From: Escherichia coli
GTDB taxonomy: Bacteria; Pseudomonadota; Gammaproteobacteria; Enterobacterales; Enterobacteriaceae
Reading direction: 5' to 3' (one strand)
Length of the DNA stretch: 64,000 nt
Assembly: GCF_016903815.1 (NCBI RefSeq)
Contig: NZ_CP069973.1
Shown one piece after another: positions 32,096-35,000 of the stretch. Numbering within the stretch: the first letter of the stretch is position 1; each line of letters starts with the position of its first letter. The position numbers are program-made.

Positions 32096-35000
32096 TCAGA
32101 ATTAACTTAACTGTGAATCATGATGTTTTTAGCATCCTGATAAGAGCTAAAAGTTTTAACGCTACGTTGTTCGATGGTCAACGCAACGAAAAACAATTCA
32201 GATTTTCTTTATAAGAATAGCTGATATTTATTAAGTTAATATTAAGCAGTGAAATTTAGTCTATAAGATAATTGGCAAAAATAAATATCCTCCGGCATAG
32301 CCGGAGGTTTTTCAAATGCGCCTATAAGGCTCTCTTACCAGCCGCGCCCTAACAGGCGCACACGATCTGACATTTGCATCCAACTTCGTTACTTACGGCC
32401 CGTAAACGGGCTGCCCGGATAGGGAATCGATAACTGCTCTCCCATTTTATCCTCTTCAAGCTGGTGCTTTATGTAATCCTGTATCTTCGCCGTGTTCTTA
32501 CCCACTGTATCGACGTAGTACCCTCTGCACCAGAACTCCCTGTTCCTGTATTTGAATTTCAAATCACCAAACTGCTCGTAAAGCATCAGACTGCTTTTCC
32601 CTTTCAGATATCCCATAAACCCGGATACGCTCATTTTGGGCGGGATCTCCACAAGCATATGGATATGATCTGCACAGCATTCAGCTTCCAGAATCCGTAC
32701 GCTTTTCCACTCACACAGCTTTCTCAAAATACTGCCTATTGCTCTACGCTTCTCTCTGTAGAACACCTGTCTTCGGTATTTTGGCGCAAAAACTATGTGA
32801 TATTTACAGTTCCATCGGGTGTGCGCTAAGCTCTTTTCGTTCCCCATTGGGACCCCCTTTTGATTTCTTGTTTGACACTTGCAGTTGCCAGACCGCAAGG
32901 TGTTTTAACAAATCAAAAGGGGTTTTAATAACTGGCTCAAAGCTGAAAGCTTTCCGGAACCCCCAGCCTAGCTGGGGGTTTTCTGTGCACAAAAAAGCCC
33001 GGCGCAATATACGCCGGGCCTCAATTTTATTGTTGGTTAAATCAGATTAATCCAGCCATTCGGTATGGAACACACCGTCTTTATCAATGCGCTTATAAGT
33101 ATGCGCACCGAAATAGTCACGCTGTGCCTGGATCAGGTTCGCAGGCAGAACAGCGGCACGGTAGCTGTCATAATAGGCAACCGCAGCGGCGAAGGTCGGA
33201 ACCGGGATACCGTTCTGTACTGCATATGCGACGACATCGCGCAGCGCCTGCTGGTAGTCATCGGCAATTTGCTTGAAGTACGGAGCCAGCAGCAGGTTAG
33301 CGATCTGCGGATTTTCGGCATAAGCATCGGTGATTTTCTGCAGGAACTGCGCACGGATGATGCAACCAGCACGGAAAATCTTAGCGATTTCGCCGTAATT
33401 CAGATCCCAGTTGTACTCTTCAGACGCCGCACGCAGTTGAGAGAAACCCTGAGCGTAAGAAACGATTTTACCCAGATACAGCGCACGACGAACTTTCTCG
33501 ATGAACTCACCTTTGTCGCCAGCTGGCTGCGCTTGCGGGCCATAGAGAACTTTAGATGCGGCAACACGCTGCTCTTTCAGAGAAGAGATATAACGTGCAA
33601 ACACAGACTCGGTAATCAGCGACAGCGGTTCGCCGAGATCCAGCGCGCTCTGGCTAGTCCATTTACCGGTACCTTTGTTAGCCGCTTCATCCAGGATCAT
33701 ATCAACCAGGTAGTTACCGTCTTCATCTTTTTTAGTGAAGATGTCTTTGGTGATGTCGATCAGGTAGCTGCTCAGTTCACCGTTATTCCACTCGGTAAAG
33801 GTCTGTGCCAGTTCTTCGTTAGAAAGATTCAGGCCGCCTTTCAGGAGAGAATAGGCTTCAGCAATCAGTTGCATATCACCGTATTCAATACCGTTGTGAA
33901 CCATCTTCACATAGTGACCTGCGCCATCGGCACCAATATAGGTAACGCATGGCTCACCGTCTTCAGCTACTGCGGCGATTTTGGTCAGGATCGGTGCAAC
34001 CAGTTCATAGGCTTCTTTCTGTCCGCCAGGCATAATGGAAGGACCTTTCAGCGCACCTTCTTCACCGCCGGAAACACCGGTACCGATGAAGTTAAAGCCT
34101 TCTGCAGAAAGCTCACGGTTACGACGAATGGTGTCCTGGAAGAAGGTATTACCACCATCAATGATGATGTCACCTTTATCGAGGTATGGCTTAAGGGAAT
34201 CAATAGCAGCATCCGTGCCTGCACCTGCTTTCACCATTAACAGGATGCGACGAGGCGTTTCCAGAGATTCAACAAACTCTTTCACCGTATAGTAAGGAAC
34301 CAGTTTCTTGCCTGGATTTTCAGCAATCACTTCTTCAGTCTTCTCACGGGAACGGTTGAAAATAGAGACGGTATAACCACGGCTTTCGATGTTGAGCGCA
34401 AGGTTGCGCCCCATCACTGCCATACCGACTACGCCGATCTGTTGCTTTGACATTGTTTACTCCTGTCAGGGAAAATTTCTTATAGTAAATGTTATATTAT
34501 AAAAGACTATTCTATTTTATCAAAAAGAATAACTAGATAGGTAATAATTAATCATCTGAATATCCATTGGGGTTTTGCACTTGCCATTTCCAAGCATCTC
34601 GAATCATATCAGCTAAATCTTTTTTAGCTCTCCAATTTAATTCTTCATAAGCTTTTGAAGGATCTGACCAACATTCAGCGATGTCACCGGGACGCCTACC
34701 AACAAATATATGTGGTACAGCGACATTTGTTATTTGTTCAAAAGTTTTTATTAAGTCAAGAACCGAATAACCTTTTCCAGTACCTAAATTATAGATCTTA
34801 CAATTCTCCCCTTCATTCGATGCCTTTACCGCTGCAACATGTCCTTCGGCAAGATCCATAACATGAATATAATCACGCACACCAGTACCATCATGGGTAT
34901 TATAATCATTACCGAAAATATGAACCTCATTGAGTTTACCTATTGCGGTTTGGCAAATATATGGCATAAGATTATTAGGTTTTCCTCTTGGATCTTCCCC

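What the first reader, a model, noticed from the sequence alone, without database searches (positions are those of the whole stretch)
32290..32985. IS200-like element inserted between ugd and gnd
Seen in sequence: a 152-aa HUH/Y1 transposase (MGNEKSLAHTRWNCKYHIVF...) flanked by hairpin structures, lying in the ugd-gnd intergenic region. Established knowledge: IS200 elements are nearly silent and keep structured ends, including a terminator-like hairpin. Inference: its hairpins could affect read-through between the O-antigen/gnd region and ugd.
Basis: partly seen in the sequence, partly recalled or inferred. Interest (0 to 1): 0.3.

Follow-up and report, generated by a model that had tools for sequence, protein, structure and literature searches.

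The report
Ordinary IS200C insertion in gnd terminator
This is a complete, already catalogued 712-bp IS200C insertion sequence that landed in the T-run of the gnd transcription terminator, upstream of an intact ugd promoter, in a minority E. coli O102 lineage, so it is real but ordinary.

Summary
Window 32279..32990 (minus strand, 712 bp) is a complete IS200C copy of the IS200/IS605 family.

- **Element:** it encodes an intact 152-aa Y1/HUH transposase (Pfam Y1_Tnp, E=3.8e-38; H61-I-H63 and Y125 present). It has the published IS200 left-end anatomy (hairpin at nt 11-33, Shine-Dalgarno-sequestering stem-loop at nt 69-137; Rfam RF01405, 146 bits) and a matching right-end hairpin.
- **Insertion site:** an isogenic empty site in O102 strain Nord122 shows a clean 712-bp insertion with no target duplication. 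It lies inside the T8 run of the gnd terminator, which is now split T6|IS|TT.
- **Distribution:** 96 of 5426 complete E. coli genomes carry the filled site. K-12 and most other genomes are empty. RefSeq already annotates the gene as IS200C.
- **Target preference:** 6 of 6 other E. coli copies and 108 of 118 related copies in other bacteria sit just after a terminator-like hairpin plus T-run, against 1.4% of random positions. A preprint already reports this bias at family level.
- **Effect on ugd:** the insertion leaves 192 bp upstream of ugd untouched, including a PmrA-type box, and adds terminators behind an existing one. Any effect on gnd-to-ugd read-through is probably small and is untested.

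Novelty: already known. Interest: low.

The parts
32279..32990 (-). Complete IS200C insertion sequence, 712 bp. IS nt 1 = window 32990. The placement is ambiguous by up to 3 nt inside the A/T run.
   Evidence: Six-copy alignment A1: the shared block runs from AAATAAAT to GTGCAC, with unrelated flanks. Isogenic empty site GGC-A8-GCCCGG against filled GGC-A5-TAAAT...GTGCAC-A6-GCCCGG gives a net 712 bp and no target duplication. RefSeq names the gene 'IS200/IS605-like element IS200C family transposase'.
32389..32847 (-). tnpA, the 152-aa Y1/HUH single-strand DNA transposase. HUH motif at H61-I-H63; catalytic Tyr at Y125.
   Evidence: Pfam Y1_Tnp, 3.8e-38; PDB 2ec2, 2f4f, 2a6m; motif positions. 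Y125F is catalytically dead in PMC4513863.
32958..32980 (-). Left-end subterminal hairpin (IS nt 11-33, 10-bp perfect stem, 3-nt loop). It is the presumed TnpA recognition hairpin and the published bidirectional rho-independent terminator that blocks transcription entering the IS.
   Evidence: (DNA fold -11.7 kcal/mol). Function is taken from PMC4513863, which places the hairpin at nt 12-34 in Salmonella IS200.
32854..32922 (-). [quoted passage not shown] This is the region to which the published antisense sRNA art200/STnc490 is complementary.
   Evidence: RNA fold (z=-6.4 for the 207-nt stretch), Rfam RF01405 alignment, coordinates. The published IR at nt 69-138 and the SD sequence are in PMC4513863.
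32289..32307 (-). Right-end subterminal hairpin CCTCCGGC-TAT-GCCGGAGG (IS nt 684-702), followed by a 10-nt tail ATATTTATTT to the end of the IS. It has the same architecture as the left-end hairpin and is terminator-like on both strands.
   Evidence: (terminator-like on both strands).
32317..32360 (-). Imperfect inverted repeat in the tnpA 3' untranslated region (IS nt 631-674). Role unknown.
   Evidence: I2, 13-nt arms, 85% complementary; forms in the MFE fold.
32991..33019 (-). Host target: the gnd intrinsic terminator hairpin (32997..33019) plus the 6 T (sense strand) left of its original T8 run, abutting the IS left end.
   Evidence: The empty sites in Nord122 and K-12 show the uninterrupted hairpin plus T8.
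32277..32278 (-). The remaining 2 T of the split T8 run, now next to the IS right end.
   Evidence: Comparison of empty and filled sites.
32230..32246 (-). Context: a CTTAAT-N5-CTTAAT direct repeat (PmrA/BasR-type box) in the ugd upstream region, 33 bp from the IS right end and undisturbed.
   Evidence: Sequence; identical in the K-12 empty site. The box consensus comes from my own knowledge and was not tested.

Best explanation
This is a complete, potentially active copy of IS200C, from the IS200 group of the IS200/IS605 family.

**Mechanism.** The family moves by single-strand 'peel and paste' transposition, catalysed by its Y1/HUH transposase TnpA. TnpA binds the two subterminal hairpins on the top strand, which here is the window minus strand. 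It cuts 5' of the left end and 3' of the right end.

**Insertion event.** This copy inserted, without target duplication, into the T-run of the gnd intrinsic terminator. Before the insertion, the sense strand read hairpin-T8. It now reads hairpin-T6 | IS | TT. The element has the same orientation as gnd and ugd.

**Why this site.** The site fits a general target rule for this IS group: insertion 3' of a T-rich motif (T-T-T-N-T-T) located 6-8 nt after a GC-rich hairpin. I infer that the AAAA 'guide' 5' of each IS hairpin pairs with the T-rich cleavage site, and that a terminator resembles the element's own right end (hairpin plus T-rich tail).

**Expression of the element.** Expression is expected to be almost nil. 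Host transcription leaving gnd meets the gnd terminator and then the left-end hairpin terminator. The tnpA ribosome-binding site is buried in a stem-loop and is targeted by the antisense RNA art200.

**Consequences for the host.** These are probably minimal. gnd keeps its hairpin and six U residues. All 192 bp upstream of ugd remain, and two or three additional terminator-like hairpins now lie between the two genes.

**Shown:** identity, ends, structures, polymorphism, target bias. **Inferred:** guide pairing, right-end mimicry, silence of this copy, lack of effect on ugd.
For: - **Protein and motifs:**
- **Left-end RNA and DNA structures:** these match Rfam RF01405 at 146 bits and the published positions (PMC4513863).
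- **Ends and absence of duplication:**, plus the isogenic empty site in O102 strain Nord122, whose flanks differ from the window by 1 of 1359 and 0 of 1463 bases.
- **Multicopy, identical copies:** strain 7/2 has 22 places, and a copy at ybdG-pheP is 100% identical over 711 bp.
- **Polymorphism:** 96 of 5426 genomes carry the filled site. The joined flanks match at 80% coverage or more in 3674 genomes, and nearly all sampled ones are empty single-piece matches, including K-12.
- **Target rule:** 6 of 6 E. coli copies abut a hairpin plus T-run on the left-end side. Of related copies found with the exact left-end hairpin, 108 of 118 unique flanks meet a terminator-like criterion, against 43 of 3000 random positions. 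The distance from the last G/C pair to the insertion point is 6-8 nt in 77 of 118, and the flank logo is TTTNTT.
- **Right-end mimicry:** tandem Y. pestis copies sit directly after another copy's right-end hairpin.
- **Family mechanism:** guide tetranucleotide 5' of the hairpin foot, target flanking the left end (PMC6006769).
- **Replication strand:** the window plus strand has negative GC skew, so the IS top strand lies on the lagging-strand template. This fits the family's known bias.
- **ugd upstream region:** intact.
- **Outward promoter:** no sigma-70-like outward promoter was found in 32000..33100.
Against: - No expression or transposition data exist for this copy.
- The exact cut positions are ambiguous by up to 3 nt because the insertion lies inside a homopolymer run.
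- Guide-target pairing and right-end mimicry are extrapolated from IS608 and ISDra2 and were never tested for IS200.
- Part of the terminator association could reflect survival of harmless insertions rather than targeting.
- The gnd U-tract is shortened from 8 to 6, which could slightly weaken that terminator.
- The Rfam hit is on the tnpA-sense strand, whereas the published STnc490/art200 is antisense. It therefore documents the left-end structure, not the sRNA itself.
Confidence: 0.93

Rival explanations
1. The element acts as a transcriptional insulator or modulator of the gnd-ugd junction. Its hairpins would measurably change read-through from the RfaH/JUMPstart-driven O-antigen operon and gnd into ugd. 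Alternatively, the split U-tract would weaken the gnd terminator.
For: - All the genes and the IS are co-oriented on the minus strand. A JUMPstart element lies upstream of the O-antigen cluster at 45263..45301, so antiterminated transcription could reach gnd.
- The IS adds a left-end hairpin and a bidirectional right-end terminator-like hairpin.
- The gnd U-tract is cut from 8 to 6.
Against: - The empty site already has a strong terminator (8-9 bp GC stem plus T8).
- ugd keeps its whole 192-bp upstream region with the PmrA-type box.
- The same kind of site is used by almost all copies of this IS group, so the location is explained by target preference and not by selection at this locus.
- No expression data are available.
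Confidence: 0.15
2. The element is an inert relic: a dead copy that can no longer move and is kept only by descent.
For: - IS200 is notoriously inactive in laboratory conditions (PMC4513863).
- A copy at the same site in strain 3CM has an internal stop in tnpA.
Against: - This copy has an intact ORF with the HUH motif and Y125 and both ends.
- It is 100% identical to another copy in the same lineage.
- The lineage carries about 18-35 places per genome, against a species median of 1.
- A near-identical strain lacks this insertion. Together these points indicate recent activity.
Confidence: 0.1
3. The insertion is ancestral to the O102 gnd-ugd region, and the empty sites arose by precise excision, which this family performs. 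In this reading the 3CM copy descends from the same event and spread by recombination.
For: - Peel-and-paste excision is seamless (family knowledge; PMC5027513 abstract).
- The 3CM copy occupies the same position relative to the ugd-side flank.
Against: - Thousands of genomes across the species, including K-12, are empty.
- The 3CM IS differs at 10 of 712 positions and its flanks differ by about 4%. It leaves T5 rather than T6. This fits an independent hit of a hot-spot at least as well.
Confidence: 0.1

Closest known systems
IS200C (E. coli member of the IS200 group, IS200/IS605 family)
   Same: TnpA is the RefSeq protein WP_000526135.1, named 'IS200/IS605-like element IS200C family transposase', at the identical locus in strain 7/2. 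The DNA is 100% identical to other IS200C copies. Published IS200C copies are 707-714 bp and lie in T-rich regions (PMC6963479).
   Different: Nothing of substance. This is simply one particular insertion site (the gnd terminator), shared by 96 complete genomes.
Salmonella IS200 (707 bp; Lam and Roth; Beuzon and Casadesus; Ellis and Haniford)
   Same: A single 152-aa TnpA with Y125. A left-end terminator hairpin (published nt 12-34, here nt 11-33). A Shine-Dalgarno-sequestering stem-loop (published nt 69-138, here nt 69-137). The SD sequence AAGGGGGU. Region complementary to art200/STnc490.
   Different: The length is 712 rather than 707 bp, and the sequence is a variant. Expression and sRNA production were not examined here.
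IS1541 / IS200G of Yersinia pestis
   Same: It has the exact same 23-nt left-end hairpin and the same kind of target (hairpin plus T-run).
   Different: The left-end start differs (GTGCCCAGAA against GTGCACAGAA), the host differs, and the copy number is much higher. Tandem copies were seen in Y. pestis and none in this window.
IS608 (H. pylori) and ISDra2: the mechanistically characterised IS200/IS605 members
   Same: Homologous TnpA (2a6m at E=3.9e-19, 2xm3 at E=1.9e-16). Subterminal hairpins, no terminal inverted repeats, no target duplication, and a target that abuts the left end.
   Different: Those elements also carry tnpB and use TTAC or TTGAT targets with no known need for a neighbouring hairpin. 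IS200C has tnpA only and a T-rich target next to a hairpin.
Group IIC introns and REP-targeting ISs (elements that home to terminator or REP hairpins)
   Same: They insert just after intrinsic-terminator-like or extragenic hairpins. This gives harmless, transcriptionally insulated sites.
   Different: The enzymology is unrelated (retrohoming ribozyme; DDE or DEDD transposases). The analogy comes from my own knowledge and from PMC8450116 and PMC7923331 as listed. It was not tested.

Membership tests
IS200/IS605 family, IS200 group | Encodes a Y1 HUH transposase (Pfam Y1_Tnp) as its only gene | tested here: met
   PF01797 at E=3.8e-38, covering profile positions 2-121 of 121. This is the only sizeable sense ORF in the 712 bp. 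There is no tnpB.
IS200/IS605 family, IS200 group | HUH metal-binding motif and catalytic tyrosine present | tested here: met
   H61-I-H63 and Y125. Y125F is the published catalytically dead mutant. The protein aligns with solved TnpA structures.
IS200/IS605 family, IS200 group | No terminal inverted repeats; subterminal hairpins at both ends | tested here: met
   The ends GTGCAC... and ...ATTTATTT are not inverted repeats of each other. Hairpins lie at nt 11-33 and nt 684-702 with matching architecture.
IS200/IS605 family, IS200 group | Insertion without target-site duplication | tested here: met
   The empty site has A8. The filled site has 2 + 6 host A's once the 712-bp element is placed at 32279..32990. 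The homopolymer context leaves the cut position ambiguous by up to 3 nt, but no extra bases need explaining.
IS200/IS605 family, IS200 group | A conserved short target sequence abuts the left end only | tested here: met
   TT precedes the left end in 6 of 6 E. coli copies, while the right-end flanks vary (T, A, C, A, C, G). The logo is T-T-T-N-T-T in 118 related copies.
IS200 proper (Salmonella/E. coli type) | Left-end terminator hairpin plus an SD-sequestering 5'UTR stem-loop | tested here: met
   Rfam RF01405 full-length match at 146 bits against a gathering score of 56. Fold. The positions match PMC4513863.
IS200 proper (Salmonella/E. coli type) | Expression of the antisense sRNA art200/STnc490 and low tnpA expression | not testable with these tools
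   The complementary region is present, but no transcript data exist. The Rfam model matches the tnpA-sense strand.
Mobile insertion sequence in general | Multiple near-identical copies at different loci, and presence/absence polymorphism at this locus | tested here: met
   10735 places in 3096 genomes, and 22 places in strain 7/2. Filled in 96 genomes, empty in Nord122, K-12 and most others.
Mobile insertion sequence in general | Demonstrated transposition of this copy | not testable with these tools
   This needs a mating-out or excision assay.

The most novel reading that the evidence does not exclude
IS200-group transposases may choose their targets by recognising an intrinsic terminator in single-stranded DNA (a GC hairpin followed 6-8 nt later by T-T-T-N-T-T on the lagging-strand template) as a mimic of the element's own right end. 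That would explain why this copy sits in the gnd terminator, why a different IS200 variant hit the same terminator in an O160 strain, and why Y. pestis copies pile up in tandem. Each insertion would then stack extra terminators and insulate itself. The targeting bias itself is well supported here. The right-end-mimicry mechanism is inference, and the bias has already been noted at family level in a preprint.
Probability: 0.45. Interest if true: 0.35.

Novelty: already known. Interest (0 to 1): 0.1.

Why it matters
The finding matters little for this locus. It is a catalogued insertion sequence in a neutral, already terminated intergenic spot, and it serves mainly as a lineage marker for the O102 (strain 7/2-like) clade.

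Its modest value is as a clean worked example. An isogenic empty site fixes the ends of IS200C, and the site illustrates the strong terminator-adjacent target preference of IS200-group elements. That preference helps explain why these elements are so harmless and so silent.

If the insertion did alter ugd or gnd expression, it would touch on LPS modification and polymyxin resistance (ugd/pmrE). Nothing here suggests that it does.

Tried and rejected
- **Literature on this junction:** a search for IS200 + gnd + ugd + O-antigen returned no papers.
- **Literature on target choice:** PMC9208149 and PMC6006769 say nothing specific about IS200 terminator targeting. PMC9009780 only cites the Ellis paper.
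- **First hairpin detector:** my strict perfect-stem detector scored only 60 of 118 flanks. It broke on bulged stems and on A/T pairs that absorbed the tail. I replaced it with an RNAfold-based criterion, with random-position controls from the same loci.
- **Promoter scan:** a scan of 32000..33100 found no outward-facing sigma-70-like site. The single hit lies inside ugd and is below the shuffle expectation. I therefore dropped the idea that the IS supplies a promoter to ugd.
- **Weak Rfam hits near the ends:** Ysr202, isrJ, PsrR1, L20 leader, Leu leader and Qrr all fall far below their gathering scores. They merely reflect the right-end hairpin and the gnd terminator.
- **Other copies in the window:** none were found.
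- **Fragment or fixed element:** both ideas are rejected.
- **3CM copy:** I could not decide whether it is independent or shares descent with this one.
- **Serotype breakdown:** I could not list all 96 filled genomes by serotype with the tools available.
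Full report
**1. What is at the coordinates**

All the genes in this region lie on the minus strand of the window. In order they are gnd (33047..34453), a 152-aa ORF (32389..32847) and ugd (30920..32086).

- It matches Pfam Y1_Tnp (PF01797) over the full domain at E=3.8e-38.
- It matches solved IS200/IS605 transposases: 2ec2 at 4e-23, 2f4f at 8e-20 and IS608 TnpA 2a6m at 4e-19.
- It carries the HUH motif (H61-I-H63) and Y125. Y125 is the residue whose Y125F change gives the catalytically dead mutant in PMC4513863.
- Rfam RF01405 (STnc490) matches 32857..32980 on the minus strand, full length, at 146 bits against a gathering score of 56.
- The 23-nt left-end hairpin sequence is expected 0.00 times by chance in this window, and it occurs only here.

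**2. Exact ends**

I aligned the region with five other E. coli copies lying in unrelated loci: ybdG-pheP, pheM-rplT, ymgL, mgtT and caiF-carB.

- The shared block starts at AAATAAATATCC on the window plus strand and ends at ...TTCTGTGCAC.
- On the ugd side, the base just outside the block varies among the copies.
- On the gnd side, two A's (TT on the element's sense strand) follow the block in all six copies.

Strain Nord122 has the same O102 gene cluster with identical neighbouring proteins. Its flanks differ from the window by 1 of 1359 and 0 of 1463 bases. It has no IS.

- The Nord122 junction reads GGC-A8-GCCCGG.
- The window reads GGC-A5-TAAAT...GTGCAC-A6-GCCCGG.

The net insertion is 712 bp. 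The best placement is 32279..32990, and it needs no target duplication (2 + 6 = 8 host A's). Because the cut lies in a homopolymer run, the placement could slide by up to 3 nt.

**3. Anatomy**

Positions are on the element's sense strand, with nt 1 = window 32990.

| IS position | Feature |
|---|---|
| nt 1-10 | GTGCACAGAA |
| nt 11-33 | perfect hairpin AACCCCCAGC-TAG-GCTGGGGGTT |
| nt 38-52 | small hairpin |
| nt 69-137 | long stem-loop that pairs CCCC with the Shine-Dalgarno sequence AAGGGGGU (nt 132-139) |
| nt 144 | ATG of tnpA |
| nt 602 (window 32389) | last base of the tnpA stop codon |
| nt 631-674 | imperfect inverted repeat |
| nt 684-702 | hairpin CCTCCGGC-TAT-GCCGGAGG |
| last 10 nt | tail ATATTTATTT |

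This matches the published map of Salmonella IS200. [quoted passage not shown]

The two end hairpins share one design. Each has AAAA 5' of the foot, an 8-10 bp GC stem and a 3-nt TAG or TAT loop. This is what the family mechanism expects of the TnpA-binding subterminal hairpins, with a guide tetranucleotide 5' of the foot (PMC6006769).

So the hairpins belong to the element and do not flank it. One caution applies to the Rfam hit. It is on the tnpA-sense strand, whereas the published sRNA is antisense. The hit therefore documents the left-end structure, not expression of the sRNA.

**4. Identity and distribution**

RefSeq annotates this gene, at this locus, in strain 7/2 as 'IS200/IS605-like element IS200C family transposase' (WP_000526135.1).

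- The window is 100% identical to strain 7/2 over 17 kb, apart from a separate IS in wzzB.
- The IS alone matches 10735 places in 3096 of 5426 complete E. coli genomes. The median is 1 place per genome and the maximum is 35.
- Strain 7/2 has 22 places, one of them 100% identical over 711 bp.
- The whole ugd-IS-gnd interval is present in 96 genomes.
- The joined flanks without the IS match at 80% coverage or more in 3674 genomes. In a sample spread down the ranking, almost all were single-piece empty sites, including K-12, O157:H7 and ATCC 8739.

The element is therefore complete, multicopy, polymorphic and recently active in this lineage.

**5. Why it is here**

The insertion point is the T-run of the gnd intrinsic terminator. 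That terminator is the hairpin GCCCGGCG-N7-CGCCGGGC at 32997..33019, followed by T8 on the sense strand, now split as T6 | IS | TT.

All five other E. coli copies also have a GC hairpin plus T-run immediately 5' of their left end. In several cases this is recognisably the terminator of the co-oriented upstream gene: pheP, rplT and carB.

I then scanned one genome per species for the exact left-end hairpin. The scan returned at least 120 stretches of DNA from Yersinia pestis (IS1541), Vibrio ruber, V. penaeicida, Brenneria, Dickeya, Edwardsiella, Pluralibacter, Mailhella/Desulfovibrio MAGs, a Bacillota MAG, an Oxalobacter MAG and others.

- Of 118 unique left-end flanks, 108 meet a terminator-like criterion: MFE of -8 kcal/mol or lower, the hairpin's 3' end within 12 nt, and at least 5 T in the last 9 nt.
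- Only 43 of 3000 random positions in the same loci meet it.
- The distance from the last G/C pair to the insertion point is 6-8 nt in 77 of 118 flanks.
- The flank logo is T-T-T-N-T-T, with T at position -1 in 117 of 118 and at position -2 in 116 of 118.
- Several Y. pestis copies sit in tandem, directly after another copy's right-end hairpin and T-rich tail.

From this I infer two things. The AAAA guide pairs with the T-rich cleavage site; the right-end DNA fold even draws this pairing. A terminator also looks like the element's own right end.

The sharp spacing argues for targeting rather than mere survival of harmless insertions, although both probably contribute. The bias is not new. A 2025-26 preprint reports that terminator-like sequences are most over-represented just upstream of IS200/IS605 elements, and a genome report lists IS200C copies in T-rich regions.

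A second IS200 variant sits at the same terminator in the O160 strain 3CM.

- It has 10 of 712 differences from the window's copy, and its tnpA carries an internal stop.
- Its flanks are about 4% diverged, and it leaves T5 rather than T6.
- This is probably an independent hit of a hot-spot, but shared descent with recombination is not excluded.

The window plus strand has negative GC skew. That puts the IS top strand on the lagging-strand template, in line with the family's replication-coupled bias (PMC5027513 and PMC6006769 abstracts). GC skew over 64 kb is weak evidence on its own.

**6. Consequences for gnd and ugd**

- gnd keeps its hairpin and six U's.
- ugd keeps all 192 bp between its start codon and the IS. 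This stretch includes a perfect CTTAAT-N5-CTTAAT repeat at 32230..32246, which I recognise from my own knowledge as a PmrA/BasR-type box. It is identical in K-12.
- A transcript leaving gnd now meets, in order, the gnd terminator, the IS left-end hairpin and the right-end hairpin, which is terminator-like on both strands.
- No sigma-70-like outward promoter was detected.
- A JUMPstart element upstream of the O-antigen genes (45263..45301) makes antiterminated read-through into gnd conceivable.
- However, the site was already terminated before the insertion, so the expected net change is small.

None of this can be measured with the tools available here.

**7. Comparison, novelty and verdict**

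The element meets every testable defining feature of the IS200 group: a Y1/HUH TnpA as its only gene, subterminal hairpins, no terminal inverted repeats, no duplication, a target abutting the left end, and the IS200-specific left-end RNA structures. It is the catalogued element IS200C.

Expression of art200 and actual mobility were not testable. This is an already known element at an already annotated position. It is useful as a lineage marker and as a tidy illustration of terminator-adjacent targeting, but it is not surprising. Interest is about 0.1.

Noticed in passing
window 29094..30401 (wzzB remnants at about 28484..29093 and 30402..30810): wzzB, the O-antigen chain-length regulator gene, is interrupted by an approximately 1.31-kb IS3-family element annotated elsewhere as IS1203 (orfA 30023..30349, orfB 29136..30026, ALIL frameshift pseudoknot 29952..30068). 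Strains 7/2 and Nord122, otherwise identical here, have an intact wzzB. No complete genome in the collection showed this exact insertion. It would be expected to alter the O-antigen modal chain length.
   Followed up: partly
window 32230..32246 (- strand): There is a perfect CTTAAT-N5-CTTAAT direct repeat, of the PmrA/BasR-box type by my own knowledge, 33 bp from the IS right end in the ugd upstream region. It is conserved in the K-12 empty site.
   Followed up: partly
L008 6293..7004 (E. coli 3CM, O160): A different IS200 variant occupies the same gnd terminator T-run in a strain of another O serotype. It has 10 of 712 differences and an internal stop in tnpA. This suggests an insertion hot-spot, or an old insertion moved by recombination.
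   Followed up: partly
L075, L076, L078, L092, L122 (Yersinia pestis NCTC5923): IS1541 copies lie in direct tandem, with the left end of one copy placed right after the right-end hairpin and ATATTTATT(T) tail of another. The junction appears in two forms that differ by one T.
   Followed up: partly
L010-L070: The exact 23-nt IS200 left-end hairpin occurs in genomes and MAGs assigned to very distant groups: a Bacillota MAG, Peptococcaceae, Candidatus Saccharibacteria, Elusimicrobiaceae, Mailhella/Desulfovibrio and Oxalobacter. Many occurrences are at contig ends. This points either to wide horizontal spread of a highly conserved end or to binning or contamination artefacts.
   Followed up: no
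window 32857..32980: Rfam RF01405 (STnc490) matches the tnpA-sense strand at 146 bits and the opposite strand at only 19 bits. The literature describes STnc490/art200 as antisense to tnpA. The Rfam model appears to represent the sense-strand left end.
   Followed up: partly
window 45263..45301 (-), 21183..21306 (+), 51860..51930 (+), 56400..56449 (-): Context features found by Rfam: a JUMPstart element upstream of the O102 O-antigen cluster, the his operon leader, and naRNA4 and algC RNA motifs in the presumed colanic-acid region. The O-antigen cluster (about 36-44 kb) has a GC content of 0.30-0.38, against about 0.5 elsewhere in the window.
   Followed up: no
strain 7/2-like genomes: The genomes that carry this insertion have 18-35 IS200C-matching places each, against a species median of 1. 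IS200C has therefore expanded unusually in this lineage despite its reputation for dormancy.
   Followed up: no
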